From: Macrostomum lignano
Taxonomy: Eukaryota
NCBI GenBank assembly: GCA_002269645.1
Contig: NIVC01001238.1
Coordinates: 124,001 to 188,000, forward strand
Direction of reading: 5' to 3'
Length of the DNA stretch: 64,000 bases
The notes beneath the pieces are model-generated. The model was not told the origin of the DNA. It did no database searches and saw only the letters and a list, made by a program, of their open reading frames with translations. Shown one piece after another: positions 37,630-64,000 of this stretch (positions within the stretch are counted from its first letter, which is position 1; every line of letters starts with the position of its first letter). The translations under genes and the position numbers were made by a program.

Positions 37630-40600
37630 CATCGTTGAAGAGCTCAGCAACATCGCATTTGCCCGCTATCAGTTTCGTCTCTGCGTTCAGCAAAGTGGAG
37701 AGCTCCTGGTATTTTCGACTTAAATCAGCGAGTTCTTAACACCCAATGACTCCTTTATCTGAGATCAGAAAGTGGTGAAATGCTGCTCCGATAGAATTCG
37801 GCAAAGATTTCTGGAGTCCAACATCTCTCTCAGCGATGCGTTAAAACAAGCGCCCGCATTTGCAGCAGAAGAGCAGGCCACAGCCATCGAAAACTCCGGT
37901 AGCATCGCAGCAGTGCACAGCGCAGCACCGAAGCAGTTTAGAGACAGCGGAACGCGACGGAATGGTCAGCGGGTCACTGACGCGCAGCAAACAGCAGCCC
38001 CACCACCTGCTTTCGATGGGATGAGCGCAGACACAGTTCATGCAATGCAGCAAAAGCCAAAACCTGCCAGGTATGCGGCAAGCCAAACCACCTCGCCAAA
38101 GCATGCTGACAACGCAGGCCTCCAACAAGCTCCAGCATCAACACCGTAGCGGACAAAGAAGCTGAGGCGGTCTTTATAGGCCACGATTCGCTAATCGAGG
38201 AGGCCTTCACTATCCAGTCTCAAAAACCTGCGCCAACACAACTCCGCCAACATTCACCTGAAGATCGAGGGCAAGTACAGAGATTTTGACTAAAACCCCA
38301 ACTGAACTCCGCGTCAGCAGTCTCCTTAGTGAGTTCCAGTTCATCTTTAAAAGCCTTTGGTGCGTGAAAGACGACGAGGGTGACGTTCGTCGTCAACCAG
38401 AAGCTGTCCCACTTTGCCCACCCACCCTCCAGATTTCCCGTCCACCAGCGGTCGGCGGTCATCGCAAAACTTCAGTCTCTCCTCGACCAAGGTACCATCG
38501 AGTGCTTCAACGGCTCTTTACAGTGGGTCTTCCGCTTGGTTTTCGACCCGAAAGAGAGCTGGGGCATCCGCATCTGCTAGTACCTGCGTGACATAAACTC
38601 ATTTTCGGTGCCAGAAAAGCAGCCCATCCCAACCTTTAAGGAGATCACGGACGAGATAGCGGGTTCCAAGGTATTCAGCGAGCTCAACATCGTAAAGGCT
38701 TTCCATTAGCACTACCTCAGCGACCGTCCAGATCTCACAGTCATCACTTCAGTGATGACCCACTACTGTTCATTGGTCCCGCTTTTTCAGCCTGGTTCTA
38801 GGCCTCCGCCACGGATCGAACGGATGACTTTAAGAGTACAGCACCTCAACTTCAAGCTTTATCTGTTTGCCAGGGCCACAGAATCCAGCAGATGTCCTCA
38901 GTAGACAGCCTGAACTGCAGACAAAGGACAATCCTGGACTTCTCGACTGACACTTCCTCAACGCAATCGCCATCGGCTATACTCAGAAAGGACTGAGCTT
39001 CGCAACAATTCAGGAGACTTCAGTGTCGAACGACACGATCCAAGCAGCTCTCTACGAACTGGTCAGTGGGACAAGTAGAACAGAAAGCTGCGGGCCTTGT
39101 CCTGCTTGCAGCGATAAGAAGCGACTGCCAGGCGTTCGTCCAGTCTTGTCTCCCCTGTAAAGCGACATCGCCGAAGAGCCTTGCACCGCCACCGCTCTCA
39201 CCGACTCACCTTCCGGACGGAGTATGGCTGGAATTTCCCAAGGTCGACATAGTCGGCTCAACATCAGCTGAGGCAGTGCTTCTACATCTCCGGCTTCTGT
39301 TTAGCAGATACATCATCCCGTGGCAAATCGGCATCAAGCATCGCTAAATCGATATCAAGCATCGCCGGATGGGCATCAAGCATCGCCGGATATGCATCAA
39401 GCATCGCTTAATCGGCATCAAGTATCACTAAATCGGCATCAAGCATCGCTAAATCGGCATCAAGCATCGCTAAATCGGCATCAAGCATCGCTAAATCGGC
39501 ATCAAGCATCGCTGGATCGGCATCAAGCATCGCTGGATCGGCATCAAGCATCGCTAAATCGGCATCAAGCATCGCTGGATCGGCATCAAGCATCTCCGGG
39601 TCGGCATCAAGCATCGCTAAATCGGCATCAAGCATCGCTAAATCGGCATCAAGCATCGCTGGATCGGCATCAAGCATCTCCGGGTCGGCATCAAGCATCG
39701 CTAAATCGGCATCAAGCATCTCCGGTTCGGCATCAAGCATCGCTAAATCGGCATCAAGCATCGCTAAATCGGCATCAAGCATCGCTGGATCGGCATCAAG
39801 CATCTCCGGGTCGGCATCAAGCATCGCTAAATCGGCATCAAGCATCTCCGGGTCGGCATCAAGCATCGCTGGATCGGCATCAAGCATCTCCGGGTTGGCA
39901 TCAAGCATCGCTGGATCGGCATCAAACATCTCCGGTTCGGCATCAAGCATCGCTAAATCGGCATCAAGCATCGCTAAATCGGCATCAAGCATCGCTAAAT
40001 CGGCATCAAGCATCGCTAAATCGGCATCAAGCATCGCTGGATCGGCATCAAGCATCTCCGGGTCGGCATCAAGCATCGCTTAATCGGCATCAAGTATCAC
40101 TAAATCGGCATCAAGCATCGCTAAATCGGCATCAAGCATCGCTAAATCGGCATCAAGCATCGCTAAATCGGCATCAAGCATCGCTAAATCGGCATCAAGC
40201 ATCGCTGGATCGGCATCAAGCATCTCCGGGTCGGCATCAAGCATCGCTAAATCGGCATCAAGCATCTCCGGGTCGGCATCAAGCATCGCTGGATCGGCAT
40301 CAAGCATCTCCGGGTTGGCATCAAGCATCGCTGGATCGGCATCAAGCATCTCCGGTTCGGCATCAAGCATCGCTAAATCGGCATCAAGCATCGCTAAATC
40401 GGCATCAAGCATCGCTAAATCGGCATCAAGCATCGCTAAATCGGCATCAAGCATCGCTAAATCGGCATCAAGCATCGCTAAATCGGCATCAAGCATCGCT
40501 AAATCGGCATCAAGCATCGCTAAATCGGCATCAAGCATCGCTGGATCGGCATCAAGCATCGCTAAATCGGCATCAAGCATCGCTAAATCGGCATCAAGCA

Positions 40601-42070
40601 TCGCTAAATCGGCATCAAGCATCGCTGGATCGGCATCAAGCATCTCCGGGTCGGCATCAAGCATCGCTTAATCGGCATCAAGTATCACTAAATCGGCATC
40701 AAGCATCGCTAAATCGGCATCAAGTATCACTAAATCGGCATCAAGCATCGCTAAATCGGCATCAAGCATCGCTAAATCGGCATCAAGCATCGCTGGATCG
40801 GCATCAAGCATCTCCGGGTTGGCATCAAGCATCGCTGGATCGGCATCAAGCATCGCTAAATCGGCATCAAGCATCGCTAAATCGGCATCAAGCATCGCTA
40901 AATCGGCATCAAGCATCGCTGGATCGGCATCAAGCATCTCCGGGTCGGCATCAAGCATCGCTTGATCGGCATCAAGTATCACTAAATCGGCATCAAGCAT
41001 CGCTAAATCGGCATCAAGCAACGCTAAATCGGCATCAAGCATCGCTAAATCGGCATCAAGCATCGCTGGATCGGCATCAAGCATCTCCGGGTCGGCATCA
41101 AGCATCGCTTAATCGGCATCAAGTATCACTAAATCGGCATCAAGCATCGCTAAATCGGCATCAAGTATCACTAAATCGGCATCAAGCATCGCTAAATCGG
41201 CATCAAGCATCGCTAAATCGGCATCAAGCATCGCTGGATCGGCATCAAGCATCTCCGGGTTGGCATCAAGCATCGCTGGATCGGCATCAAGCATCGCTAA
41301 ATCGGCATCAAGCATCGCTAAATCGGCATCAAGCATCGCTAAATCGGCATCAAGCATCGCTGGATCGGCATCAAGCATCTCCGGGTCGGCATCAAGCATC
41401 GCTTGATCGGCATCAAGTATCACTAAATCGGCATCAAGCATCGCTAAATCGGCATCAAGCAACGCTAAATCGGCATCAAGCATCGCTAAATCGGCATCAA
41501 GCATCGCTGGATCGGCATCAAGCATCTCCGGGTCGGCATCAAGCATCGCTTAATCGGCATCAAGTATCACTAAATCGGCATCAAGCATCGCTAAATCGGC
41601 ATCAAGTATCACTAAATCGGCATCAAGCATCGCTAAATCGGCATCAAGCATCGCTAAATCGGCATCAAGCATCGCTGGATCGGCATCAAGCATCTCCGGG
41701 TCGGCATCAAGCATCGCTAAATCGGCATCAAGCATCTCCGGTTCGGCATCAAGCATCGCTAAATCGGCATCAAGCATCGCTAAATCGGCATCAAGCATCG
41801 CTGGATCGGCATCAAGCATCTCCGGGTCGGCATCAAGCATCGCTTGATCGGCATCAAGCATCGCTAAATCGGCATCAAGCATCGCTAAATCGGCATCAAG
41901 CATCGCTAAATCGGCATCAAGCATCGCTAAATCGGCATCAAGCATCGCTGGATCGGCATCAAGCATCGCCGGATCTGCCCGCTGCACCCCGAGGCGAACA
42001 GAAAGACTAGGCGAGTCAACAAGTGCATCAAGAACGTTATCAGAGCGGCCATTGCGAAAGTACATCCTGT
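37630..42070 (+). mobile_element. Decayed Ty3/Gypsy gag-pol remnant, integrase split by a tandem array
   Basis: Fragments NIAFARYQFRLCVQQSGE (gag), PPSRFP..R..V..KLQ.LL..GTIE and GIRIC..IPT..EI..EIAGSKVFSEL (RT), NPADVLSR (RNase H end), IRSDC..FVQSC..C and LFSRY.IP (integrase), and HPEANRK..RVNK.IK after 41975. Many stops and deletions. Confidence 0.75.
39322..41975. repeat. 21-bp minisatellite (atcggcatcaagcatcgctaa / ..ctccggg / ..cgctgg), ~126 copies with higher-order units
   Basis: Direct reading; marker variants recur at 588, 441 and 441 bp spacing. Confidence 0.97.
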
Positions 42071-42661
42071 GTGATTGAGTGTATCAGTGCGTGCCTGCGT
42101 ACAGTACCCGCGCGCTTGTCTGTGCTCAGGTTTCAGAGGAATTGGATCAGTTCCGCTTGTGAGACGCTGTCGCCGAAAGCTTTGCAGCCCTCCTGCAAAT
42201 AGTATTAGCTTGTAATATTCAGGATGAAAGCCTTCCAAGTCTTCAATTAAAGCAAACAAATATAAATTAAGAGTGTCAGTGAACTCTGTGCTATTCATAC
42301 GAGTATTACCAAATTGTTGCCAAAAAATTATTTCCGAATATGGATTACAGATTTTTAGACGGCCTGTCAAATTTGGTTTGATTATTGGTAGGTAGCTAAT
42401 TAAAATCGCCCTGTGCATTTGGAAATGCCTCCACACTACTCACACGGAATCTAATGTGGTGAGTAGTATGAGTTTATGCAACTCTGCCGCACTTGCACTG
42501 CGGAGATAGGCGGCAGTGTAAAAAGGATAGGAGGGCGTAAAAGAGCCAGCTGAGATAGCCAATGGAAATAAGGGCCGGGCGTGGGGTGGGTGTGCGATTG
42601 GCTGGTTGGCGGGGTAATGAAACGCTTATTCAACTCTGCCGCACTGGGGAGGCAGGCAGGC

Positions 42662-42914
42662 AGCAAAGCAAAGAATCGGAAGGTTTTGGAATAGCAGAGT
42701 GAACAAATTAAAAACAAGGAAACGTCCACCTCAATTTGTGCCTGGCCATTGCAACTCCTGGGCGTCCCCCACTGTGCTTATCCTATAGCATGCCTATGCA
42801 ACTCTGCCGCACTATTTGTCAGTGCGGAGTGAAATAGATAAGAGAGAGAGGCTCTGGTCTTGAGTGTCTGCCTCTGGTGCTGCTAATAAATGAGCAATAA
42901 ACTTTGTAACGGGT
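42662..42914 (+). repeat. Left TIR core; imperfect inverted copy at 63643-63922
   Basis: For example aaacgtccacctcaatttgtgcctggccattgcaactcct...gcaactctgccgcactatttgtcagtgcggagtgaaatagataag is reverse-complemented at the right end. Confidence 0.95.
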
Positions 42915-43014: not shown

Positions 43015-43022
43015 TATATAAG
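43015..43022 (+). promoter_or_regulatory. TATA box (TATATAAG) upstream of the PC4-like gene
   Basis: Canonical motif 84 bp before the ATG at 43106, preceded by an 11-bp perfect inverted repeat (42969-42979 / 42990-43000). Confidence 0.55.
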
Positions 43023-43105: not shown

Positions 43106-43805
43106 ATGGATATTAGTGAAGGTTACAGAGTGCAGGTGCAAGAGTTCGAAGGCCAGAAATACATTGCGATCAGGAAGTTTTGGTGTTCCTGGCTTCAACC
43201 TGAATGTGCAGCAGTGGACGAAGCTAAAGGACTTAAAGCGCTCCCTGGTGAAGTCGGCTCTGAATAACGAGGTCAAGGTCATCAAGCTGGGCTTCGACAA
43301 ATTTATTCAAGTCAAGGATGGCCTCATCTGGCTGAAGCGACTGCCTGAGGACTGCTGCGATGAATTTATGAAGCGCAACACCGTGCCGCTGTCTCCGAAG
43401 CTCTGGCAGAAGCTGTGGCAGACTTCGGACTGGATAGACCAGCAGCTATCAGAGCCCTACCAAGGTGCGGGGGCGAAGTACGAGCTGAGCTCATCCGAAG
43501 ATGAGGTCGAAGACGCCACCGTCATACTGCCAGTCAAGACTGAGCCTGCTGAAGGCGAGGAGGAGGTCCGCTCACCATCGGAGATGACAACCGACATCGA
43601 GGCTGTGACTTCCACACCTTTGGCCAGAGCCGGCACATCGACTGGGAACATCCCGGCGGAGGACACGGACCCGCAGCAGGATCCGGTGTGGTACCGATTC
43701 CGGGCTCATGCCGCTGAGGTGGAGAACAATCGGAAGCGGAAACTGCCATATCCTCTGCGCAGGCAGGAGACAATGAAGGTGTCTAAGCTGCGTTTTGAAG
43801 ACTGA
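43106..43805 (+). pseudogene. PC4/Sub1-like ssDNA-binding / transcriptional co-activator domain protein, one +1 frameshift (TTTT 43178-43181)
   Basis: Removing one T gives MDISEGYRVQVQEFEGQKYIAIRKFGVPGFNLNVQQWTKL, aligning with the PC4 core as recalled ([35 protein letters not shown]); acidic C-terminal tail. Confidence 0.7.
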
Positions 43806-44157
43806 GCTGGAGGTTGGATGAGACTGATGAGACTCAAAGGATAATTCAGTTTGGTTTGCCTTTGTCTAATTTTATTCAGCTAAGTTAAGTTTTGACAATT
43901 GTCGTAACCGTTTAGTCTTACGAGCTATTTATTCAGGTGTTAACAAAACAAATTTATACTTATTTGCACTACTCAATGCTATTATTTCCTGCAATCTTCT
44001 TTTCAAGATTACCAACTGTTCGCAGTCCCCGAGTTAAAAAATAACTCGTGTACACTGTATGAGTTTAATATTGGAATAAAAAAATGTCTTTAAAAATGCC
44101 AATCGTTGCTCTTAAGAAAAACATACCTGTGTACATCTGGTTCTTTTTCATTTGAGG

Positions 44158-45223
44158 ATGGAAAAAATTTACTTTGACCCACAACAGCCGGCTAGTTTTT
44201 CTAGTGCTTCTAAACTGTTGAATGAAGTTAGGAGAAGAGGAGATCCCATATCCACTAAGAGCATAGATCAGTGGCTCAGTGAGCAGCCAGTGCACACCCT
44301 ACACAAGCCAGCTAGAAGGCGATATCCAAGGGCCCCAATCATAGTGCGAGCTATCGATGATCAGTGGGAACTTGACTTGGTAGAAATGATTCCATTCGCA
44401 AAGTATAATAAAGGCTACAAATATATTCTCACATGTATTGACGTACTGTCAAAGTGTGCTTGGGCCAAGGCACTGAAAAATAAATCTGCTGCAGAAGTGA
44501 AGTCAGCATTCGAGAGCATACTGAGAAGTTCAAAGCGCCAGCCACGCACAGTTCGCACAGATCAGGGGAAGGAATTTATCAACTCCACTTTCCGTCAATA
44601 CTGCATTGACAGAGGGATTAGCTTTCCCAACTAACAGCGAGCAGAAGGCGGCTGTCATTGAGCGATGGAATCGGACTCTGAAAAGTAGAATGTGGCGCTA
44701 CTTCACCTACAAGAGCACACTGCACTGGCTTGATGTGCTGCCTAAGCTGGTAAAATCCTACAACAATACTTACCACAGAAGCATCAAAATGGCACCCACT
44801 AGTGTCTGCAAAGAGAATGAATCTGAAGTGTGGATGAACCTGTACGGTGGAAAAGCAGCCGAGACTCTAGAAAAATTAAGGAAGCCTAAGTTCGCTGAAA
44901 ACCAGTCAGTGAGAATTTCCAATGCTCCACGGCTATTCAAAAAGGGATACAAAGCGAGCTGGAGTGAGGAAGTGTACATCGTGGTGAGCAGAGCCCCAAA
45001 ACATTATCCCTACATGTACAAGATTAAATACATGCGGGGGGAAGAGATTCGAGGACTCTTCCATGAGCATGAGCTGCAGGCTGTCCCGGACTCACAGCGG
45101 CTGTATGTGATTGAGAAGATCCTGGAAACGGAGAAGCGGAAGGGAAAGATTCGCTATCTGGTGAAGTGGGCCGGCTACGACTCGACTGGCTGGGTGGATG
45201 AAAAAGACTTAAGAAAGGTTTAG
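44158..45223 (+). pseudogene. Maverick retroviral-like (DDE) integrase with C-terminal chromodomain; frameshift near 44625
   Basis: WELDLVEM..YILTCIDVLSK, VRTDQGKEF, KAAVIERWNRTLK, YNNTYHRSIKMAP; C-terminus YVIEKIL...GKIRYLVKWAGY...WV. Confidence 0.92.
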
Positions 45224-45260
45224 CTTTGGCACATCCCTCATCATAAAGTTTATCATTATA

Positions 45261-46070
45261 ATGCGAACTATTTTGATTAACAGTGAGCATGCTGAAGGTA
45301 CTCCTAGTGACTTTAATTTTTACCTGCCTTCACCTATTTACTTGGATCGAAATGTGGACTATGAGGCAGGTCTGGCTGAAATCCATCTGCCTGCTGCATG
45401 GTTCAATGTTGACGAGCCTTACTGCTTCACTGTCTCAGATGGAAGAGAGCATGAGGCCCTGGTTCTTCAACCCGGACGCTTTGCTAGAGTGGAGGAGCTG
45501 GTGGAGCGTTTGAATCAGCTGCTGGCCAACTCTGATTCGCTGTTCTTTGATGCAATGAGTGACAGGGAGTTTGAGATGGAGGCTGATGAGTCCGGCCTGA
45601 TGGGGCGTAGTGGCAACAGGGAATTCGGTACGAAGTTTGAAATCCGCAACTCACGAACTGTGGTGCACAACAACACTGCGAGAGCAGAGCTGTTTCTTCC
45701 ATCCAGCAAAATTCTGCATTGGCTGGGATTTAGAAACCAGGCTGTGAAAATCCAGTCAGGGAGCCGCATGTCCGAGCACTGCATTGGCTGCCCGCGCACC
45801 AGCTTAATCAATGTGCACTGCAGTATCGTTGAGTCAACTAATTGCAACTTGGGCTCCCTGTTGAGAACAGTTGGAAATGAAAGCCGGCATTGAATGGGCA
45901 ACTATCAAACAAAAATATTTAAGAAAACAATATTCTTCCCGATTTAACAAATCAGTCTTCTTCACAGCATTCGAGTTCAGCTGCGTGAAATCTATGGTTG
46001 CCCACTGATTGCCCAGACACTCAGCCCTGTTCTGCTCACAGTTCAGATTCGGGAGAAACGCATTCAATGA
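45261..46070 (+). pseudogene. Minor capsid (penton) protein; in-frame stops at 45891 and 45945
   Basis: SDFNFYLPSPIYL...YEAGLAEIHLP..WFNV N-terminal signature; the same frame continues ..IFFPI*..IRVQLREIYG..VLLTVQIR to TGA at 46068-46070. Confidence 0.8.
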
Positions 46071-46456
46071 ACTACCAGCAGCTGATCCAGCAATATTCGG
46101 GGGTGAGGACAGGACACGAAAAGCCTGCACTCTATGGCTGTGGGAGCTTTCCGGGGATCATGACATACCAGCCTCCTCCAGCGGCTACATCATCATTCTC
46201 AACGCATAGCAATGTCAGGCGCAAAAGAAATACTAAAGCAAGTCCGAAACGATTGAAGAAGAAGAAGTACACCCGAAAGGCAACTGGTAGAGATCGCACC
46301 AATAAGAGGTGCAATGAAAGAAATCCGAGCAAGGCTAGTAGGAAAAAGCTTAAGAATAGGAAGACGAAAGCAAAGAAGAATGCAGCAGGCGGAGGAAAGC
46401 GAAAGCGAAAAGTCAGCAAGAAAACTGTGAAACGCGTGCTCGACTATCTGTCATAG
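46067..46456 (+). CDS. Highly basic Lys/Arg-rich protein, putative DNA-condensing core protein
   Basis: ATG overlaps the penton stop (ATGA); C-terminal half is K/R-rich; lies between penton and MCP. Function is inference. Confidence 0.6.
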   Translation: MNYQQLIQQYSGVRTGHEKPALYGCGSFPGIMTYQPPPAATSSFSTHSNVRRKRNTKASPKRLKKKKYTRKATGRDRTNKRCNERNPSKASRKKLKNRKTKAKKNAAGGGKRKRKVSKKTVKRVLDYLS

Positions 46457-46458
46457 AC

Positions 46459-47739
46459 ATGGCTTACGGATTCAATCCCAGACTTGATTTATTTAAGACG
46501 CCTGTTCTACAAACCTGCATTGAAAAAGCTACTTATGTTGATTTTCACCCAGTTAATTCCATTACTGCAAACTCCCCCATTGAATTTGACTGCCACCAAT
46601 CTGCCGATGAATACACAGATCTGCTTAATACTTTTCTTTATATTCGCTGCCGCCTTGTGAGACTGGATGGGGGTTTGCTGAGGGAGGATGTTCGAGATGG
46701 AGATGGCATCATCACCGAGAGCAGAGACAGTGACGTGCACCCAGAAAACTTTGTTTTGTCTACAGCCTTCTCAGATGTAATTGTGAGCATTAACCAGCGA
46801 GTGGTGTCTGGTGGAGACCAGCTCTATCCCTACCATGCGTACTTTAAAGCACTAATGAGCTCATCTGATGCCCAGCAACTAAAACTTTACCCAGCTGGCT
46901 TCCTGGAGCCGGACTCTGCAGCTGAAGAGCACACGGAGAGCCACAGGGAATCCCGATGGATGGAGTATGCGGGGCCCCTCTTCAGCGATGTTTTCCAGTG
47001 CCCAGTGTTTCTGCTAAACAATCTGCACTTGCACATCAAACTGGTCCCCAGCGATGGGGCCTTTGCCATCAGAAGAACCCCGAATGTAAACAACGCGGCT
47101 TATCGCATGGAAATCTCTCACAGCATTCTGCATCTTCGCCGAGTCAAAGTGGTGCCTCACATCAGCCTGGCTCACGAGCAGGGGCTGACAAACCAAAATG
47201 CACTGTATCCCATCGAGCGAACTGAAATGCAGAACTTCATCCTACCCCAGGGCATTCAATCTAAAAACATTGAAGGATTCACTCATGGAAAATTGCCGAA
47301 GTTCATCATGCTGGCCTTCGTGAGCCACCGAGCATTCAACGGTCATCATCACGCGAATCCGTTCCAGTTCCAGAGCTTCAACCTCAGCCGGTTGGCTCTA
47401 AAGAAAGGTGGAGAGACCGTGTGCCACGGCGCCTTCACACCTGAAAACAATTCCTTTGTAAGAGAATACTTGCACCACATGAAAAGCTGTCAATCTGCAA
47501 GCAATTCGGTCCCGTGGATCCCCTACCAGCTCTTCTCCAACAACAACACGGTGTTTGCATTCGATCTCACACCAGAGGGAGCGGCTCTGTGGTAGGGACA
47601 GAAGGAGGGCAACCTGCGGCTGGAGATTCGCTTCCGACAGGCTCTGGACGAAGCGGTGTCCCTGATCTCTCTGTGCCTGTATGACTCGCTGATTGAGGTC
47701 ACCAAGCACCGGGAGCTTTTGCTGGACTATTCCTCTTAA
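46459..47739 (+). pseudogene. Major capsid protein (double jelly-roll, Polinton PY type); in-frame TAG at 47593-47595
   Basis: LDLF..P.LQT.IE...VDFHPVNS....PIEF..Y.DL.NT.LYI; NPFQFQSFNL; AFDLTP; the frame continues GNLRLEIRF..AL.EAV....YDSLIEV. Confidence 0.92.
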
Positions 47740-47744
47740 TTGGC

Positions 47745-48254
47745 ATGGACGCAATTCAACTACTTAATCTCGCCAGAAAATTTTTGTCTTGCCGAAAATT
47801 TCTCATCATTACTTTACATTCACGCTATAAAAATTTTTTGCCTTTGAGTCTAAAAAGAAAATATCGATCAATTTCCCTCGAAAATAAGTTTGTTTTTGTT
47901 CTACTACAGCACAATGGTTCATTTGGTCATTGGGTGGTGTGCTATGTTGGACAAGGAAATTGCATTGAGCTGTTCAACTCCCTCGGCTGGGAACCTGAAA
48001 TTTTATCTGTGGTTTATAATTTGTTTCGGGAGATTAAAACAACTGGCTTTTGGCTCCGAAGCAATAAAAACAGATTTCAATGTGCTAACTCTAATAAATG
48101 CGGAATGTTTTGCATCTATTTTGCTTATCAAAAGTTTCTGTTCAATCGATCATTTGAGGGGATTTTGAAGCATTTGCATGCTAATGAAAAAAATCATTTG
48201 AATGATAGAATCTTACAGAGGTTTGAAGCCAACTTAAGAAAAAGATGTGCGTGA
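47745..48254 (+). CDS. Adenain-like cysteine maturation protease
   Basis: GHWV, ELFNSLG (Asn where FDS is usual), FQ...SNKCGMFC. Confidence 0.85.
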   Translation: MDAIQLLNLARKFLSCRKFLIITLHSRYKNFLPLSLKRKYRSISLENKFVFVLLQHNGSFGHWVVCYVGQGNCIELFNSLGWEPEILSVVYNLFREIKTTGFWLRSNKNRFQCANSNKCGMFCIYFAYQKFLFNRSFEGILKHLHANEKNHLNDRILQRFEANLRKRCA

Positions 48255-48480
48255 TTTCTAATATTTATGCATTAGACATGGCAGAAAAGCGAGTTTGCTA
48301 CGATATCCGCCTCAGGCAGGGAAGCTGCATGATTGTCTGCGGGCCCACCAATGCAGGAAAAACAACCTTTGTCAAACACCTGATCCAGTACAGAGACGTC
48401 ATGTTTGATGTGAAGCCTGGCAGAGTTCTGTGGTACTATGGGATCTCACAGGCAGGCCATGCAGAACTGAGCAGCCTAGG

Positions 48481-48858
48481 TATGACGTGAGCGAGTTCGA
48501 GATGTAGTTAGCGATTAATTAATTATTAGTTATTTATTTATTAGTTAGCTAGTTCAATTATTAGTAGTGTTGACACGCAGGGTACGAGACAAAACGCCGC
48601 GTTGAGGAGAGTACAAAAACGAGCTCGAGGCAACATTTAAATTGGCGGGGAAATCCGATTCATTTAAACCTAAGATGTCTATCAAAAAAGTAATAATAAC
48701 TTGGACTTAAATAAATAAAACATGAAGTACATTTTTTTCTAAATAAATTACATTAAATTAATAGCTGGGGAACCTGAAAATTAATCAACTACAATAATTT
48801 TAAGTAATAAAAACTCAGATAGAAACTAAAAAGTTAAGATGCTAACGACGTCGTCACA
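48481..48858 (-). mobile_element. 378-bp solo-LTR-like insertion with 5-bp TSD CTAGG
   Basis: Ends T[A]TGACG...CGTCACA (TG..CA with one change, 7-bp inverted ends); CTAGG at 48476-80 and 48859-63; AATAAA on the minus strand. Confidence 0.75.
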
Positions 48859-49089
48859 CTAGGTGTGCAGCTGCGCCAGGGATTTCCCACCAACATCGAG
48901 GCAGCACTTAGGCCCTATGACCTGGTTGTTTTCGATGACTTAATAGAGGAAACTTCAAACTCTGCTTCAATGCAAAATTTTTTCACAGGAATCGCACATC
49001 ACTTGCCGTGCTTCTTGGTGATGCTGACTCAGAATATATTTTTCAAGGGAAAAGAGTCGCGAACAATGAGCTTAAATGTAATGTACTTA

Positions 49090-51237
49090 CAACAACAACA
49101 ACAAAATACGCTGTCAGGATGGCAAAAGTCTGCGTCACAGGGCGCGCTTCATGGCTTGGGCGCGAACAAAGGCCGCGCCACCGGCAGTGTCCGGGGCGCC
49201 GGCGTCAGCCAGCAGACAGTCGACATAACGCCGAGTTCGCGCTTGACCTCGCCGGTAGGGTGCCTGCAGCGTGAGCAGCAGCACCTCCTGCACCAGCTGT
49301 GGGCAGTACGACTCGGCGCGGATGAGATGGCCTGCGAGCTGGAGTCGCCGACGGCGCAGTAGATCACTTGGACGTGGCAGGCCAGCGCGGCGATAGAGTG
49401 CCGCGTTGGTGACTCGCTCGACGCCGATGTTGAAGGCGGCGCGCAGCAGGCCAGCGTGCGCCGCATCGACTTGCTGTTCGAGTGAGTCCGTCAGCGTCCA
49501 GGTCTCGGCGTTGTACAACAGGACGGTCTCGATTACCGCCTGGAACAGTGCCGCCCTCTGGCGGTCCGGTAGGGCCTCGGACTGCAGGACTGCCCTCACA
49601 GAACGAAAGGCAGCCCAGGCAAGCCCGCGGCGGCGTCGCAGGTCCTCGCGAGCTTCTGGAACCAGACCGCCGAGGTAGACGAACTGCTGACATCGCGGGA
49701 GTTCGGTCGCCTGCCCGTCAGCGCCTCGGCAGAATATTGCAGCCTCGATGTCGTCCGGCACGCAGAGCACAACGGTCTTCTGCGTGTTGACCACCAGGCC
49801 GACACTCGCCGCAACGGCAACTAGCCTGTCCAGCTGCCGTTGGGCGCCCTCGACGGTCGAGGACAGCAGGGCGAGGTCGTCGGCGTAGCCAAGCACGCTG
49901 AGCCGCTTCTCCGGTTGACGTCGACCCACGCGTCGCTGCAGCAGAAAACCATCGTCGTCGGTAGGAAGAGCAGTCCGCAGCACCCAGTCAAGCACCAGGA
50001 CGAACAGGAACGGCGCCAGCGTATCTCCCTGAAGTACTCCGGAGGATGTCTCAAAGGAGTCCGATAGGCCATCCGGTGTTGTCACAGCAGCTGTCGTATC
50101 ACGGTACATCGCCATGATGGCGGAGATCAGCTGCTTAGGCACGTTGTACGCACGGAGCACCATTGGAAGCACGGCTCTGACAACCGAGTCGATTGAAATC
50201 AATAAAGATTAGAATCAGGATCGACTGGCGAATCCGCGCCTCCTCGATGACTCGGCGAAGAGCCAGGATCTGCGCCACTGTGCCGCGAAGGGGCCGGAAC
50301 CCGTTCTGCTCTGGGCGCAGGTACGGATCCAGCACGGGCTGCAACCGCGAAAGCAGCATCCGGTTGAACAGCTTCGCTGCACAGGACTGAAGGCAGATGT
50401 CTCGATGGTCTTCAAGCCTAGTGGTGCCCGGCTTCTTTGGAACAGCGACGATGTGCGCCGTGGTCCATTTGTTGGGCGCCGCCTCACCGAAGAGCACGCG
50501 GTTCATCACTCTGGCGACCTCAGCGGCCACACAGGGGATGCGCAGCGCCTCGATGGGCACCTCGTCCGGACCCAGCGCTTTCCCGCCCGGTGACTGCTGG
50601 GCGAGCTTGACAACGTCGGCTGCGTTGACTGGGGCTACGCTGAAACTCTCCTCTGCCGGCAACGGCGTCTCCGGCGGCAGCGTCAGACTGTCTGGCAGCG
50701 GGGGTGGCGGCGCGTTAACGATGGCGGCGAAGAACTCGCGCAGCTCAGCGTTCCTGCGCTCGTCCGGAGTGTCACAGCCAGGTTCAGCGGATTGCGCCGC
50801 TTTCGCCCCGTCAGAGCGTTGATGGCGGACCAGGCCACGCGCCCTCTGGCATCGGGCCCAGCGGCAGAGACAGCCTGAATGGCGTCATCGACAGCCGCTT
50901 GTTGGCGCTGCAGGTAGACAGCCGCCAGAGCTGCCTCTGCCTCGCGGGTTGGTCGCCTGCTCAAGCGGAGCCTCTCCAGATCTTCCCTCGCTGCCTGAAT
51001 CGCAGGGTCGTCCTGCCAGACCGGCTGTCCACGTTGAGCCGGTTGCATCATCGGGACTGCTTGCTCCGCGGCGGTTCTGACTGCAGCGCACTCTTCCGCA
51101 TACTCGGCACTTCCACGCTTGTCGCCCAGCGCGGTGTTAAAGGCGCTAGCAAAGCGACGCTGCGTATCGGTGGCTCTGAGTGCGCGGTAGTAGCGCCGCG
51201 GTGGCCGCTTCGGCGGACGGTAGAGCGGATCGCGAAG
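49090..51237 (-). mobile_element. 5'-truncated RTE-like LINE with a (TTG)n tail and 7-bp TSD GTACTTA
   Basis: RT motifs GPDEVPIE, QNGFRP.RGT, GVLQGDTLAPFLF, YADDL, FVYLG; (CAA)n at 49090-49104; TSD at 49083-89 and 51238-44; frameshifted. Confidence 0.88.
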
Positions 51238-51506
51238 GTACTTAGCTATCTTGAAAAACCCCAGAGACCAGCTGCAGATTTCAGCACTGGGCAGGCAGTG
51301 CTTTACAGAGAAGCCCGGCTTTCTGCTGTCAGTGTTCAAGCACGTGACCGCGCAGAACAGGGGAGCTTACCTGTTCCTAGACTTTCACCGATCAACTCCC
51401 GATGAGCTGCGAGTGCGGGCCAGAATTCTGCCCAACCAGCGACCCCATCTTGTATTTGCTTAAGAAAGTGAAGCTTGTTTTTTTATCAGCTATTGTTTTC
51501 ATCGCT

Positions 51507-51857
51507 ATGGAAGTGCTTGATTCACATGCAAGTCTTTTTGCGGTTCTTGCGTCACCTAAATTTACCGTGCGCTTCAAGCGACTGTTGATAAAAAATTGTC
51601 CAAAACAAGTGCGTTGTTTTCTTGTCGAGGCCTGCCATAATCTCATACAAAACAATCTGTCGTTTTCGCTCGATGAAAAAGCTGTTCTTGCAAAGTCAAA
51701 AGAGATAATTCGAAAAATTACTCACAAAAGAAGAAAGACAAACTTGTTGAAGGCTGGCTTCATTAAAATACTCCTGATTCTGCTTAAGCTGGTAAAGAAG
51801 AAGAAGCAAAATGAACAAATTTTCAGAAATGGTTCTGATTCCCAAAGCAGAGTATGA
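51507..51857 (+). CDS. Conserved Maverick-type basic ORF with an amphipathic C-terminal segment (KAGFIKILLILLKLVKKKK)
   Basis: LIKNC......LVEACHNLIQNNL.....EK..L.K.K.IIRKI resembles a small Polinton virion ORF as recalled; function not established. Confidence 0.55.
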   Translation: MEVLDSHASLFAVLASPKFTVRFKRLLIKNCPKQVRCFLVEACHNLIQNNLSFSLDEKAVLAKSKEIIRKITHKRRKTNLLKAGFIKILLILLKLVKKKKQNEQIFRNGSDSQSRV

Positions 51858-52560
51858 GATGTTGATGCAGAATTTGAAGCCGAATGAGAATAGCACTGAC
51901 GCTAACTTGAAGCAGGCTCAGAAGAAATGCGATGATATCTTGTAGTGTGCTTTGTGGGCGGCCGTAGGCCGCGTACAAAGTGTGTTAGGGGTGGCGGGGT
52001 GGCGTCTGCGTTGGGGGGGGGGGGGGTTGTCGCGGGGCAGCTAGCTTTTAACCCCCAACTTGTGCTCTGCTCGCGGTGTCCAAAGTTTGCTGGCCAAACG
52101 CAAGCACGCTGGAAAAGAAGGAGCACGCAATATTGAAGCCAAGTTGATGAAAACAGAGACACCACAGATGAGCACCTGGGAAGAGAAGATCAGCAAGTCG
52201 GTGCCACAGAAATTCAAAACCAGGGCTCGCAGTCTATGGACGATCGTATCCACCAATCCAGAGCTGATTCGAGTTTGTGAAAACGAGGAGGTGGATACAT
52301 ACTGGACTTGATTCAGCACACAGTGAGGGATTCGCCATGTGCGCGTGAACCAGTTGGCTGGAATGAGTTCATCGATTTGCTGCAGCAGAAAAAGCTTAAT
52401 GTTCCGCTTTCCGCTGTTGGTAAATCAGTTAAAAAGAAAATGGCAACCAGCAGAGGGAGTGAACTGGAGAAAGAACAGGCGAGTCTAGTCAAGGGGTACG
52501 GGAGCAACACAGCCTGGCTGAAACTGCCCGGAAGAAAAGTAAATATAAGAAGGTGGACTG
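51811..52560 (+). pseudogene. Conserved Maverick-type ORF of unknown function, interrupted by a 147-bp insertion and a frameshift
   Basis: MVLIPKAEY start; ISKSVPQKFKTRARSL; DLIQH..R..PVGWNEF..LL....NVPLSAVG. Removing 51943-52089 restores DDILLAKRKH in frame. Confidence 0.6.
51943..52089 (-). mobile_element. 147-bp non-autonomous insertion with a subterminal hairpin (Helitron/Helentron-like)
   Basis: TTG on both sides; stem ctttgtgggcggcc-gta-ggccgcgtacaaag a few nt from one end; no TIRs. Confidence 0.45.
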
Positions 52561-52589
52561 ACTCCGAAATTTCTAGGGAAAGCTGCATC

Positions 52590-53063
52590 ATGAACTACAT
52601 TGACTTCCAAGGATTCCCGTGCAACAGCACAAGCAAAAATTTGTTGTGAAAGAGTTGGCAGTTGTTCAAGTCAGAGCGGGAAGCTACCGAATTGCTCACC
52701 ATGTGTACGCACCTCCGTATCCATGGGAGAGAGTCTCCCCTGACATGCGAGTTTGCTACAGACAGCTATCAAAGAGTGTGCACCAGTTTAAGTGGAACGA
52801 TGGAACCCGTCCGTACATGGAACTGGCGGAAGACATTCTGAGGATTGCCAGTGGTCCGATCTGGACAAATGGGGAAAGGAAGTCTATTTTCCTGACTGAG
52901 CTGCTTGGTAGACAGGTTTATAACCTAGAAGATTTGGGAGCACCCTCGACTGAAGATTCAGATACTGGCTGCGCAGTGAGAAATTCATTGCTGCACTACA
53001 GTTGGCTTAAGCCAAAGTTCTGCATCAACTTAAGAAGCGAGCAGTGTCCGTGGCACAGGGGCA
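52590..53063 (+). pseudogene. Maverick-type ORF with D-x-Q-G-F motif, putative DEDD/DnaQ-like nuclease; frameshift in an A-run near 52635
   Basis: MNYIDFQGF + FVVKELAV, PPYPW, H..KWNDG..PY, VYNLEDLG.P, C.WH. Fold assignment is inference. Confidence 0.5.
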
Positions 53064-53105
53064 GTGAATTTGGCAGAAGATTTGGTGAAGAAGTCAAGGA
53101 TCGAA

Positions 53106-53693
53106 ATGAGTCCACCTGCAGCTACAGCCCTAAGAGTGACCAATCTGGTTGGCGGAGTGGATCTGAGACTGGATGGTGGCAGGGGCGCCCAGCTGCCTCT
53201 ACGGGAACTGGCTCTCAGCATGGCTCATGTGATCTACCGGCCCGTCTGGCCCCGGGTGCTCATCAAGCGGATGCGGAGTCCCAGAGTGACTCTGCTACTC
53301 TACCCTACTGGACAACTGAGCATCTGTGGCGCCAAGACCCAGACCGCAGACGCCAAAAGGGCTGCCCGTCGCTCCGTGGCTATGCTGCATCGGAGAGTGC
53401 CGGATCAACTGCTGCCTCATTAAACAATTTGTGTTCGAATTAAAACTATTACTGCTCATGGACGTTTTAAGCTCCAAAATGCGCTACCGCTTACTGAACT
53501 TGTTAAAGTTTTGCCCAAAGCCCAGTATGAACCAGAAACATTTTCAGCTTTAGTTTGTCAACTTAACTATTGTAAATGCTTGCTTTTTCATAATGCTTCT
53601 TATATTCTAAGTGGGGCGAAATCTCTGCGTATGCTAAAATTCGACAGTTCTTCCCTGTTTCGCTCTGTTAACACACTTATGCAACTAAAATAA
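53106..53693 (+). pseudogene. TATA-binding protein (TBP)-like gene with both core repeats; one in-frame TAA at 53421-53423
   Basis: Repeat 1 RVTNLVGGVDL..LPLRELALSMAHVIYRPVWPRVLIKRMRSPRVTLLLYPTGQLSICGAK..AKRAARR parallels TBP [59 protein letters not shown]. Repeat 2 LPLTELV..AQYEPETFSALV...LLFHNASYILSGAKS parallels SSYEPELFPGLI..LLIFVSGKVVLTGAK and lies in the same frame. Confidence 0.85.
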
Positions 53694-59700: not shown

Positions 59701-61571
59701 CTTCGGTCCAGAAAGGTTTGCCGGTGTTGCGACACGCGCCGCGCGGGATACTGCCGGTCGCTGCTCCGAGGATGATGTCGCAGAGCTGTTGGTGGTCCGC
59801 GTCCGTGCTCGATTTCTGCGCGGTGGTGATGCCTTGCAAAGTCTCCTCCTCCGCGTCCAGTCGGGCCGCGTAGGACGTCCAGTCCGCTTTCGCGTAGCTC
59901 CACTGGGCCTGTCGTTGGGGACGTTTGGCCTGCTTGTCTCTGGAGAGGGTAAAGGTAATAGGCAGGTGGTCGCTTCCGAGGTCCTCGGAGGTGCTCCGCG
60001 ACGTCCTGACGTAGGCGGCAAGATCACCGGAACACCAAGTGATATCCGGGCAGCTCAGGCCGCCTGTCGCCGGGTTGGTCCGCGTGTGGGCATCCTCGCG
60101 GTTGCCAAGGTGGAGGCCCCGGTCGCAAGCCCACCCCTCGATGCTGTCTCCTCTCTCGTCCTCAGGTTGATGGCTGTCCCATTGTCCATGGCCATTGAAA
60201 TCGCCGGCAATCACCGTGCGGGGCGCGACCGGTATGTCTGACCAGGCTGGGAGCCAGTTGTCCTCCGCGCGCTGGTTGCTATTGGGCGGGGCGTAGACCG
60301 CCACCAATTGGATCTGGCCAACAGCAGCCGGGCAGATGGTCACCGCCGCGTAGTCGAGCAGGCCGCCCCTGCTGACTTCAGGGTTCTTGAAGGGGACGTC
60401 ATCGCGAACCAGGATCAGCACTCCTCCCCTCCCCGTCGGGCGCTGTTTCTTTTTGCAGTTTTTTGGCTTTCGGCCGTTCGGGGCAGGTTCGGCGTCGCCC
60501 TCAGGTTGAGGAAGGGGCGGCGGGTCGGGCCGGCTGGCTTCCCCGGCGGGTCGGGGGGCTTGAGCGTTCCGGCGCTGAGCTGAGGACTGGTTCGCGTGCC
60601 TACAGCACGGGCCTTCGAATGGCACTGAGTATTGCTTAACGGTAGCGAGGCCGCTGCATTTGAGGTGGAGCCACCCGCTGCAGCTGGTGCACTGGACGCT
60701 GTAGCTGTTCCTGCGGATGACCTTGCTGCAGTCCGAACAGTGCCACAGACCTGCTTTCTTGTTGGCCGGTCCGCTCTCCGCCACTCTCCGCGCTTCCGGC
60801 GGGTCCGGGGGAGTGCGGACCCGGGGGGTCGTCAGATGGGGCAGGCCACGGGAGGTCGCGGTTGGAGCAGGCGGAGCGGCCACTTCTGCAGCCGTTGCAC
60901 CAGCCGGTCTTGTCCTGGGGCCATCGGAGGCGGCACCTAGGACGAGTGAGGCGGCGGGTGGTCGGAGCCTCCTCTCCCGCAGGCATTCCATCGTTAGTTC
61001 TCTGGGTGGTATTCGCGGTGGCGGCGGGCTCGGGATCGAGTTTGGCCTCGCCGTCTTTCCAGGCCGCCACGTGGTAACCCTGTGGCGGGTGGAAGGCCGC
61101 TCCTGGGCGGAGCTTGGTCTCCTGGAGCAGGACAGCGACGGGTTGGGTACGGGCAAGTCTCGGTACCGTTGGGACCGAACGGTAAAGCGGACCGATACCC
61201 CGATCGGGCCGGCTGAGGGTTCGGTGCAGGAGGGCCATCAACCTCCTGTGGCATGCGACTGCGTCCACGACGCGCCCCTGGACTCCGGAGACTGTACCTG
61301 GTAATTCGTCCTACCGGATGACGAAATGTCGCTCTTTACGGGGATGCTGCGAAAATTCCAACCGAGTCAACGACGACCTTCCGGCCGCCCCCGATGACAA
61401 CGCCAACCTGCATCGGGTTCTCCGTCTACGCGGAGGCGACAGTAACGTTACAGCTCCGTCCCGCCAGACCAGAAGCAGCAAAAAGCGAGGAAGGGGACAC
61501 AGGTCCGGCTCAGAGCTCCAGGTCCTCCAGTTCAATTGCAACGGACTGCAGGCCCGCCGCACGGAGCTAGC

Positions 61572-61572
<1 letters not shown>
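56701..61572 (-). mobile_element. Near-full-length Ingi/I-group LINE (APE with PHD insert, RT, RNase H, CCHC), (GAA)n tail, 5' ~410 bp inverted; inserted in a (CTG)n tract
   Basis: LQETKL, GGVLILV, YAPP, AGDFNGH, GSDHLPI; QAGFR, LDFSRAYD, GLPQGSVIAP, YADD; WTDGS, TELCAI, TDS, WVPSHCGVAGNE.AD; CPDCG....EHLLLHC. APE motif I (LQFNCNGL) is on the opposite strand at ~61525-61550. Confidence 0.9.
61230..61332 (+). ncRNA. Predicted HDV-like self-cleaving ribozyme at the LINE 5' end
   Basis: P2 gcgac(61255-59)/gtcgc(61328-32); P3 gcg/cgc around L3 UCCACGA; P1 3' strand gcccct then GG for P1.1; P4 tccgg/ccgga; J4/2 CGAAA with candidate catalytic C61322. P1 5' strand (gagggc) has one mismatch. Confidence 0.55.
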
Positions 61573-63642: not shown

Positions 63643-63922
63643 ACCCGTTACAAAGTTTATTGCCCATTTATTATCAATCCCAGTGCGCCATAGGCAGACA
63701 CTCAAGAACCAAGACAAGAACCTCTCTCTTATCTATTTCACTCCGCACTGACAAATAGTGCGGCAGAGTTGCATAGGCATGCTATAGGATAAGCACAGTG
63801 GGGACGCTGAGGAGTTGCAATGGCCAGGCACAAATTGAGGTGGACGTTTCCACGCTATGCCTACCTTGTTTTTAATTTGTTTACTCTGCTATTCTAAAAA
63901 CCTTCCGATTCTTTGCTTTGCT
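63643..63922 (-). repeat. Right TIR core of the Maverick
   Basis: Reverse complement of 42662-42914 with small indels. Confidence 0.95.
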
Positions 63923-64000
63923 ACAGAGTTGCATTAATGCGGCAGAGTTGAACAACTGTTTTAGAGCTCACACCTATCTGTCCCTGCACAGTGAGAGTTG

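What the first reader, a model, noticed from the sequence alone, without database searches (positions are those of the whole stretch)
43106..53693. Candidate self-encoded basal transcription module: PC4/Sub1 + TBP bracketing the virion genes
Seen: the first gene on the + strand is PC4-like and the last is TBP-like, with integrase and all structural genes between them. Established: cellular PC4/Sub1 works at the pre-initiation complex with TBP/TFIIA/TFIIB and binds melted promoter DNA; PC4 folds also act as phage single-strand binding proteins. Inference: having both in one 14-kb element suggests a minimal transcription-activation system for an early/late switch, an undescribed regulatory layer for a Polinton-class virus. 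The alternative is that PC4 is only the SSB for pPolB strand-displacement replication.
Basis: partly seen in the sequence, partly recalled or inferred. Interest (0 to 1): 0.82.

Follow-up and report, generated by a model that had tools for sequence, protein, structure and literature searches.

The report
Polinton TBP box; PC4 travels separately
A virus-like jumping element in an animal genome carries its own altered TATA-binding protein and a matching short DNA box in front of most of its genes, while its PC4-like gene is a separate accessory that also occurs in elements without the TATA-binding protein.

Summary
Both genes are real and sit where stated, in a decayed 21.9-kb Polinton/Maverick (about 14.5 kb native, three insertions). 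This copy's PC4-like gene is frameshifted and its TBP has one stop; many genomic copies are unbroken and under purifying selection. The PC4+TBP module is not supported. In this genome, related elements have both genes (families A, B), PC4 plus polymerase only (F, a 9-kb capsid-less element), TBP only (G) or neither (D, E). A PC4/Sub1-like gene (MOSUB) is already annotated in adintoviruses. The protein is two PC4 repeats in one chain, most likely an early single-strand-binding accessory of the polymerase replicon. The TBP half gains new support. A sense-strand NNTAAGAA box (mostly CTTAAGAA) lies 45-149 nt before eight genes of the integrase-to-TBP block, at the same places in divergent copies. 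TBP-only family G has TATAAG boxes; the PC4 gene has a canonical TATA box. The element TBPs share changed DNA-facing residues but keep the TFIIB stirrup. The likely mechanism resembles herpesvirus TATT-binding proteins; binding and timing are inferred. This scan reported Polinton TBPs (with a box, or with TFIIB) on other DNA; I found no such report in print.

The parts
42462..42914 (+). Left terminal inverted repeat; element starts AGTAGT at 42462 (right terminus lies about 350 bp beyond the window)
43015..43022 (+). Canonical TATA box (TATATAAG) of the PC4-like gene
   Evidence: present in 20 of 23 upstream regions found in the PC4 loci scanned
43106..43805 (+). Tandem PC4-like (MOSUB-type) gene: two PC4 repeats plus acidic tail; frameshifted near 43185 in this copy
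44111..44118 (+). CTTAAGAA box, 47 nt before the integrase ATG
44158..45223 (+). rve integrase with chromodomain (in two pieces here)
45208..45215 (+). CTTAAGAA box, 53 nt before the presumed minor capsid gene
45261..46066 (+). Presumed minor capsid protein (named by position and recall; no Pfam hit; broken here)
45918..45925 (+). TTTAAGAA box, 149 nt before the basic ORF
46067..46456 (+). Lysine/arginine-rich ORF, presumed core protein
   Evidence: no Pfam hit
46349..46356 (+). CTTAAGAA box, 110 nt before the presumed major capsid gene
46459..47735 (+). Presumed major capsid protein (no Pfam hit; its profile finds the equivalent gene of families B and G; broken near its end here)
47745..48254 (+). 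Adenain-like protease; no box upstream
48233..48240 (+). CTTAAGAA box, about 45 nt before the conserved (second) methionine of the ATPase
48245..51463 (+). Packaging ATPase, interrupted by insertions 48485-48858 and 49090-51234 (the latter a non-LTR retrotransposon fragment)
51459..51466 (+). CTTAAGAA box, 48 nt before a small basic ORF (51507-51857)
52544..52551 (+). TATAAGAA box, 46 nt before the DEDD/MAEL-like ORF
52590..53443 (+). DEDD/MAEL-like ORF (label recalled, no Pfam hit; frameshifted here); its tail overlaps the TBP gene in another frame
53029..53036 (+). CTTAAGAA box, 77 nt before the TBP ATG
53106..53693 (+). TBP-like gene, core domain only, one in-frame stop in this copy; AATAAA at 53689 overlaps its stop codon
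54039..62800 (-). Protein-primed DNA polymerase B with endonuclease VII domain (5' end approximate), fragmented and interrupted by a retrotransposon at 56708-61572
63643..64000 (-). Right terminal inverted repeat (continues past the window end)

Best explanation
Two separate accessories of a Polinton. (1) After entry or excision, host TBP reads the canonical TATA box next to the left repeat and makes the tandem-PC4 protein early. This single-chain PC4/Pur-type domain binds displaced single strands or melted ends and so serves protein-primed strand-displacement replication. It does not need the element's TBP. (2) The element's short, divergent TBP binds the NNTAAGAA box placed before the integrase, capsid, ATPase, MAEL-like and TBP genes. 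Through its conserved stirrup it recruits host TFIIB and Pol II, turning on this block as a second wave with positive feedback on its own gene. Shown: the genes, folds, selection, separate distribution, the box and its positions, the residue changes. Inferred: DNA binding by either protein, TFIIB recruitment, timing, and that the box is a promoter.
For: Distribution in one genome: PC4+TBP in 7 of 7 family-A copies fetched and in family B. PC4+pPolB without TBP, integrase, capsid, protease or ATPase hits in 10 of 10 family-F copies. TBP-like gene without a PC4 hit in family G. Neither gene in 2 family-D and 4 family-E loci. Fold: two beta4-alpha repeats, pLDDT 91.7; repeat 1 fits human PC4 at 1.3-1.6 A; the whole domain is closest to Pur-alpha (Z 10.0, rmsd 4.0, 117 aligned); top viral hit is MOSUB of a lancelet adintovirus (E 4e-5, TMq 0.69). 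Box: all 6 CTTAAGAA of the 64-kb window are on the + strand inside the block. It is the top-ranked 8-mer in three subfamilies (6 vs 0.22, 6 vs 0.14, 5 vs 0.13 expected). It holds its position before 8 of 10 genes across 7 copies while synonymous sites diverge by a median dS of 0.5-2.4. Families B and G have related boxes before most equivalent genes. Element TBPs of A, B and G share proline for the first intercalating phenylalanine, Tyr-Pro at the second, and Thr/Ser for the second-repeat Asn and Val, while both C-terminal phenylalanines and the acidic stirrup stay. dN/dS 0.12 (PC4 domain) and 0.25 (TBP). Precedent: herpesvirus TBP-like proteins read TATT late boxes (PMC4893493 passages).
Against: No binding, start-site or timing data; the sequencing runs found were not on record as RNA. 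The box pattern was chosen after seeing the sequence, and copies are related, so the P values are indicative only. In the whole-window shuffle test the exact 8-mer alone is only marginal (2 of 100 shuffles reach 6). Host TBP tolerates G at TATA position 6 (PMC1636458 passage), so the TATAAG boxes of B and G, and the MAEL-like box of A, may be read by host TBP. TBP-less family F carries GATAAGAA repeats inside a probable intron, and family D has CTGATAAG words, so TAAG-containing words are not exclusive to TBP families. The protease and one other gene have no box, and integrase has one, so it is not a pure 'late' set. Loss of an intercalating phenylalanine could mean weak DNA binding. The PC4 repeats lack the R100/K101 equivalents in all 22 rows that cover them, and F77 is kept mainly in family A, so classical ssDNA binding is not assured. 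Family E (pPolB 63% identical to F) and families D and G replicate or replicated with no detectable PC4. The left end of family G was not resolved.
Confidence: 0.55

Rival explanations
1. One reading: tandem-PC4 and TBP act together as a minimal initiation module in families A and B, PC4 stabilising the melted promoter at the boxes; families with one gene borrow the partner from the host.
For: Both genes are kept under purifying selection in A and in B (about 35% TBP identity) despite rearranged gene order, and are neighbours in B. PC4 has a canonical TATA box, so it would be made first. The protein has an acidic tail and a basic end, like a nuclear coactivator. The host has its own PC4 and TBP.
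Against: Family F keeps PC4 with only pPolB and no late genes; family G has TBP and boxes with no detectable PC4. The text layer of the adintovirus maps lists MOSUB but not TBP. A and B share the whole integrase-to-TBP block, so co-occurrence follows from descent.
Confidence: 0.17
2. The box is read by something else: host TBP as a weak TATA variant, or the RNA polymerase of a helper DNA virus using a TAAG late motif. The element TBP is then a decoy that sequesters host TFIIB or TBP cofactors.
For: Most boxes contain TTAAG or ATAAG, and TAAG is the baculovirus late motif (PMC4519938, abstract start in listing; details recalled). Host TBP accommodates G at position 6. The element TBP has lost one intercalating phenylalanine but keeps the stirrup.
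Against: The substituted DNA-facing residues are themselves conserved across families A, B and G, which suggests a retained specific surface. Gene-by-gene boxes were seen in the three TBP families and not in D or F. Some boxes read CTAAG, which by recall baculoviruses do not use.
Confidence: 0.2
3. The tandem-PC4 protein is neither an SSB nor a coactivator in the classical sense but an RNA-binding or protein-binding host modulator, as in other single-chain PC4-like folds.
For: The basic R100/K101 pair is replaced by a hydrophobic residue plus proline, and repeat 2 lacks the F77 hairpin. The best whole-domain matches, Pur-alpha and MRP1, bind RNA as well as DNA.
Against: The R86 equivalent is invariant and the W89 equivalent stays Tyr/Phe in 22 of 22 rows; the domain is net basic (+6 to +10). 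It is the only passenger gene of a pPolB-only replicon.
Confidence: 0.08

Closest known systems
Adintoviruses / Polintons / Mavericks (Starrett et al. 2021, PMC8502044), including the MOSUB gene (UniProt A0A5H3CIS2, Branchiostoma lancelet adintovirus)
   Same: Terminal inverted repeats, pPolB, rve integrase, adenain-like protease, packaging ATPase; a PC4/Sub1-like accessory gene already labelled MOSUB; TBP noted in the Fig. 5 legend for other MELD elements.
   Different: In what I read, no promoter box, no TBP label among the animal adintovirus maps (text layer only), no function for MOSUB, and no capsid-less PC4+pPolB element.
Beta/gamma-herpesvirus TATT-binding proteins (EBV BcRF1, KSHV ORF24, CMV UL87) and the vPIC
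   Same: A virus-encoded TBP-like protein paired with a non-canonical TATA-like box before a gene set, using host Pol II.
   Different: Here a bare 190-residue TBP core with the TFIIB stirrup intact and no other recognisable complex members; the box is NNTAAGAA, also precedes the integrase and TBP genes, and binding is untested.
Cellular TBP (PF00352) and PC4/Sub1 (PF02229)
   Same: TBP two-repeat core; PC4 beta4-alpha repeat, repeat 1 within 1.3-1.6 A of human PC4.
   Different: TBP 23-28% identical to the host's, with changed DNA-facing residues. PC4 duplicated within one chain (type I topology, like Pur-alpha I-II, MRP1, Whirly), lacking R100/K101.
Phage T5 PC4 homologue (PDB 4bg7) and other replication-associated PC4-fold SSBs
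   Same: Viral PC4-fold protein kept beside replication genes.
   Different: T5 protein is a homodimer of single repeats; the Polinton protein is a single-chain tandem.
Nucleocytoviricota TBP/TFIIB factors (poxvirus VITF-3, PMC12917281, listing only)
   Same: Virus-encoded TBP; the family-G TBP resembles Nucleocytoviricota TBP clusters in the Atlas.
   Different: Those serve a viral RNA polymerase and pair with a viral TFIIB; this element encodes neither.

Membership tests
Polinton/Maverick (adintovirus) | Terminal inverted repeats with AG...CT ends and 6-bp target duplication | tested here: met
   AGTAGT/ACTACT termini; flanks GTGGTG and GTGGGG, 5 of 6 identical
Polinton/Maverick (adintovirus) | Protein-primed PolB and rve integrase | tested here: met
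   rve E 1.4e-13; window pPolB fragments give only a weak DNA_pol_B_2 hit, but family-A copies score over the cut-off
Polinton/Maverick (adintovirus) | Packaging ATPase and adenain-like protease | tested here: met
   Peptidase_C5 E 5.5e-4, just under the cut-off; P-loop hits weak on the first fragment; both genes conserved in families A, B, G
Polinton/Maverick (adintovirus) | Double and single jelly-roll capsid proteins | tested here: inconclusive
   No Pfam hit; not folded; named by position and recall
TBP family | Two-repeat TBP core | tested here: met
   PF00352 63.7 bits vs cut-off 22.9, two stretches; 35 solved TBP sequences matched
TBP family | Four intercalating phenylalanines and canonical minor-groove residues | tested here: not met
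   First Phe is Pro, second is Tyr, second-repeat Asn/Val are Thr/Ser; two C-terminal Phe kept (landmark roles recalled)
TBP family | Acidic TFIIB-binding stirrup (YEPE) | tested here: met
   YEPE in families A and B, YDAE in G (role recalled)
PC4/Sub1 | PC4 beta4-alpha fold and profile match | tested here: met
   PF02229 over cut-off in an unbroken copy; hhalign of host PC4 to repeat 1, probability 98.7; fold
PC4/Sub1 | Homodimer of single repeats (type II) | tested here: not met
   Two repeats in one chain, best matches are type I domains; repeat 2 is only weakly similar in sequence (hhalign probability 22-27)
PC4/Sub1 | ssDNA-binding residues F77, W89, R86, R100, K101 | tested here: inconclusive
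   R86 and an aromatic at W89 kept; R100/K101 lost; F77 patchy
PC4/Sub1 | Coactivator activity at the pre-initiation complex | not testable with these tools
   No binding or reporter data
Herpesvirus-type TBP-like late transcription system | Non-canonical TATA-like box shared by a gene set | tested here: met
   NNTAAGAA before 8 of 10 block genes
Herpesvirus-type TBP-like late transcription system | Viral TBP binds that box and recruits Pol II late, after DNA replication | not testable with these tools
   No start-site, timing or binding data
Viral TBP+TFIIB pair | Element-encoded TFIIB | tested here: not met
   No TFIIB hit among element ORFs; the 15 PF00382 matches in the genome lie on 7 contigs, none of them a contig with a listed element-TBP match. 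A very divergent TFIIB could be missed.

The most novel reading that the evidence does not exclude
Families A and B run the smallest known virus-encoded initiation module: an early single-chain PC4 dimer and an altered-specificity TBP together open NNTAAGAA promoters for host Pol II. Family F is a satellite that replicates with its own pPolB and PC4 and borrows integrase, and perhaps capsids, from full Polintons.
Probability: 0.17. Interest if true: 0.82.

Novelty: new variant of a known kind. Interest (0 to 1): 0.56.

Why it matters
How Polintons time their capsid and integrase genes is unknown, and virions of endogenous animal Polintons have not been observed. A self-encoded TBP with a mapped 8-bp box gives a concrete, testable switch, and would show that a 14-kb element reached the same solution as beta/gamma-herpesviruses. 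It also offers a natural altered-specificity TBP for structural work. The natural sorting of PC4 and TBP among co-resident families assigns the adintovirus MOSUB gene to the replication side, and family F points to a capsid-less, integrase-less self-synthesising element class.

Tried and rejected
Searches for related loci outside this genome found nothing confirmed: TBP alignment in viral contigs (73 pattern hits, 0 confirmed) and metagenomes (34, 0), capsid alignment in viral contigs (33, 0), PC4 domain against phage records. No PC4-pattern scan of these collections was obtained. The cross-host co-occurrence survey is therefore not done; outside homologues of both proteins exist but lie mostly on 0.8-3-kb contigs without context. 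Many top hits of the PC4 profile search (173 at E<=0.001) are three- or four-repeat proteins, some named from algal transcriptomes or genomes, and were set aside as cellular. No PC4-TBP complex model is available, so binding is open. Expression: no RNA holder listed on record; contigs of four guessed-RNA runs cover all 30 bins of a family-A copy and cannot show strand, start or level. The single-sequence model of the family-G TBP was poor (pLDDT 48) and not used. A LEF-8 search for a resident baculo-like polymerase gave no match but had no positive control. The PC4 tree has long branches and was not used to infer direction of transfer. Pattern YTWTAAGAA was not enriched (1 match, 1.9 expected). 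Rejected: 'bracketing' as a design feature (not kept in family B); host-gene contamination (host TBP, TRF2-like and PC4 genes are separate three-copy loci).


Full report
WHAT IS THERE. The finding lies in an endogenous Polinton/Maverick in a 764-Mb eukaryote assembly. The closest named database homologue of its TBP (78% identical) is annotated from the flatworm Macrostomum lignano. The element starts at window 42462 with AGTAGT and ends about 350 bp beyond the window, with flanks GTGGTG and GTGGGG. It spans 21.9 kb, about 14.5 kb after subtracting three insertions. The + strand carries a PC4-like gene, integrase-chromodomain, presumed minor capsid, a basic ORF, presumed major capsid, protease, ATPase, two small ORFs, a DEDD/MAEL-like ORF and a TBP-like gene; pPolB is on the - strand. 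The capsid and MAEL labels rest on position and recall, not on a profile hit. This copy is decayed: the PC4-like gene is frameshifted and TBP has one stop. The genome holds at least 152 TBP matches and 150 PC4 matches (150 candidates scored in each search, so lower bounds), most without stops.

BOTH GENES ARE REAL. TBP: PF00352 E 1.4e-17; 23-28% identical to the host TBP. PC4: an unbroken copy passes the Pfam cut-off. Pairwise dN/dS among 7 family-A copies (pairs kept only if dS > 0.15 and unsaturated) had medians of 0.12 for the PC4 domain (6 of 21 pairs), 0.25 for TBP (21 of 21), 0.10 for the major capsid (13) and 0.07 for integrase (16).

THE PC4-LIKE PROTEIN. An AlphaFold2 model of the first 135 residues (23-row alignment, pLDDT 91.7) has two beta4-alpha repeats in one chain. 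Repeat 1 fits human PC4 at 1.3-1.6 A; the whole domain is nearest Pur-alpha (Z 10.0, rmsd 4.0, 117 aligned), with MRP1 and Whirly lower. This is the type I topology of the PC4-like superfamily (PMC7549692 passages). The best viral structure is MOSUB of a lancelet adintovirus (E 4e-5, TMq 0.69). MOSUB, SSDBP and MAEL are gene labels in the text layer of Supplementary Fig. S2 of Starrett et al.; TBP is not (PMC8502044). TBP appears in that paper's Fig. 5 legend. Of the human ssDNA-contact residues (PMC4350104 passage), the R86 equivalent is invariant and W89 is Tyr or Phe in 22 of 22 rows covering it; R100/K101 become a mostly hydrophobic residue plus proline; F77 is patchy; the domain is net basic. 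ssDNA binding is plausible, not shown.

THE TWO GENES ASSORT SEPARATELY. A pPolB family search (119 matches) gave other element families in the same genome; I fetched representatives, not all. Family A has both genes in 7 of 7 copies. Family B (TBP 35-40% identical) has both, adjacent and convergent. Family F has a tandem-PC4 gene (E 2e-25 to the profile) and pPolB in 10 of 10 copies, with no hit to integrase, capsid, protease, ATPase or TBP queries from families A, D and G, nor to a TBP profile. Inverted repeats enclose both genes in 5 of 7 F loci screened, and one copy is a complete 9-kb unit with a 6-bp target duplication. Family G has a TBP-like gene (Atlas 0.95, 30 of 30 hits TBP, though the recognition value was low; hhalign probability 87) and no PC4 hit with three profiles, but its left end was not resolved. 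Families D (2 loci) and E (4 loci) have neither.

A PROMOTER-LIKE BOX GOES WITH TBP. An earlier scan note (e1-7879962) prompted me to look upstream of each gene. All 6 CTTAAGAA in the 64-kb window are on the + strand inside the block (2.25 expected on both strands; 2 of 100 shuffles reach 6). With two variants there are eight boxes: 47, 53, 149, 110, about 45, 48, 46 and 77 nt before integrase, minor capsid, basic ORF, major capsid, ATPase, the small ORF, MAEL-like and TBP. In 7 family-A copies the box was found before integrase in 5 of 6 copies with a located start, minor capsid 6 of 6, basic 7 of 7, major capsid 7 of 7, ATPase 7 of 7, small ORF 6 of 6, MAEL-like 6 of 6, TBP 6 of 6, protease 0 of 5 and the ORF before MAEL 0 of 6. 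It overlaps upstream genes in different frames or their stop codon, and persists in a diverged intergenic region, which points to DNA-level selection. It is the top 8-mer in unbiased enrichment of three subfamilies. Positional tests gave 8 of 8, 8 of 8, 7 of 8 and (family B) 6 of 6 sites within 25-160 nt of a start, where such zones cover about a fifth of the block (P 2e-6 to 1e-4; pattern chosen after the fact, five starts set a few bases off, copies related). Family G has sense-only TATAAG before six genes. Families D and F show no gene-by-gene box, although F has GATAAGAA repeats in a probable intron and D has CTGATAAG words. The PC4 gene has canonical TATATAAG (20 of 23 upstream regions), also in F. 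The B-family TBP gene has a canonical TATAAAAG instead of the box.

THE TBP SURFACE. Against host TBP, the element TBPs of A, B, G and three outside homologues have proline at the first intercalating phenylalanine, Tyr-Pro at the second, and Thr/Ser at the second-repeat Asn and Val. They keep both C-terminal phenylalanines and an acidic stirrup (the roles of these positions are recalled). Shared derived residues across very distant proteins suggest a retained, altered DNA-binding face that can still call in host TFIIB. No element TFIIB was found. Against this, host TBP tolerates G at position 6 (PMC1636458 passage), and TAAG is also the baculovirus late motif (listing).

MECHANISM. Most likely (0.55): PC4-like is an early, host-TBP-driven single-strand-binding accessory of the pPolB replicon, and the element TBP drives the boxed gene block as a second wave, as BcRF1/ORF24 do at TATT boxes (PMC4893493 passages). 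Rivals: host TBP or a helper virus reads the box and the element TBP is a decoy (0.20); a joint PC4+TBP module (0.17); a non-DNA role for PC4 (0.08). Binding, start sites and timing are untested; the runs found were not on record as RNA, and PC4-TBP binding remains open.

WHAT IS IN PRINT. Nine full-text searches listed no paper on Polinton PC4-TBP co-occurrence or a Polinton promoter box. Term searches inside PMC10748475, PMC8097293, PMC11071308, PMC11296320 and bioRxiv 2023.10.06.561300, 2024.03.25.586562 and 2022.05.25.493380 found no PC4 or TBP mention. Of Starrett et al. I saw passages, section 3.2 and the first part of the supplement; its slide figures, map colours and Table S1 were unreadable or cut, so TBP or MOSUB assignments per genome may be there. 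bioRxiv supplements, Repbase notes and subscription papers were not seen. This scan has noted Polinton TBPs on other DNA (unchecked notes).

VERDICT. Observation confirmed; interpretation partly supported. The PC4+TBP module as posed is unlikely. The TBP-plus-box layer is a new variant of a known viral strategy, and the capsid-less PC4+pPolB element is a useful by-product. Interest 0.56.

Noticed in passing
L132:635-9633 (G000:C173): Family F: 9-kb element with 1.2-kb inverted repeats, ACTACT...AGTAGT ends and a GAAGCT target duplication, holding only a tandem-PC4 gene and a divergently placed, apparently spliced pPolB, each behind a canonical TATA box. No integrase or capsid. The 77 top-ranked of 151 matches to its PC4 are at least 63% identical (some are pieces of one copy).
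   Followed up: partly
L125:8243-8857, L149, L150 (G000:C2285, C1704): Family G: full Polinton with a more divergent TBP (72 matches), deoxynucleoside kinase and a dUTPase-like ORF (label recalled); TATAAG occurs only on the sense strand, before six genes and in a short tandem repeat.
   Followed up: partly
window 52590-53443; L102:1317-2406: The DEDD/MAEL-like frame runs more than 300 nt into the TBP gene in another frame in both families A and B, despite about 35% TBP identity.
   Followed up: no
L100 (G000:C2183) and G000:C878: Copies whose PC4 piece is 96-98% but TBP only 73% identical to the window's: recombination between subfamilies.
   Followed up: no
L132:3100-3750: Repeated CTGATAAGAA words (GATA-factor-like, recalled) inside the probable first intron of the family-F pPolB.
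   Followed up: no
L151, L137-L139 (G000:C2757, C1945, C2286, C1300): Family E: pPolB 63-64% identical to family F with no PC4, capsid or integrase hit within about 10 kb; other contigs carry 37-44% identical PC4 genes, one (C1753) in several copies.
   Followed up: no
window 39392-42010: Host tandem repeat of 21-nt units giving long open frames just left of the element.
   Followed up: no
window 49090-51234 and 56708-61572: Two non-LTR retrotransposon insertions, the second with long reverse-transcriptase and RNase H-like frames, plus a 374-bp AT-rich insertion at 48485-48858.
   Followed up: partly
window 62999-63352: Tandem repeat of 27-nt units just inside the right inverted repeat, variable in copy number between copies.
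   Followed up: no
proteins P0019-P0044: Proteins with three or four PC4 repeats, some named from green-algal or other marine eukaryote datasets.
   Followed up: no
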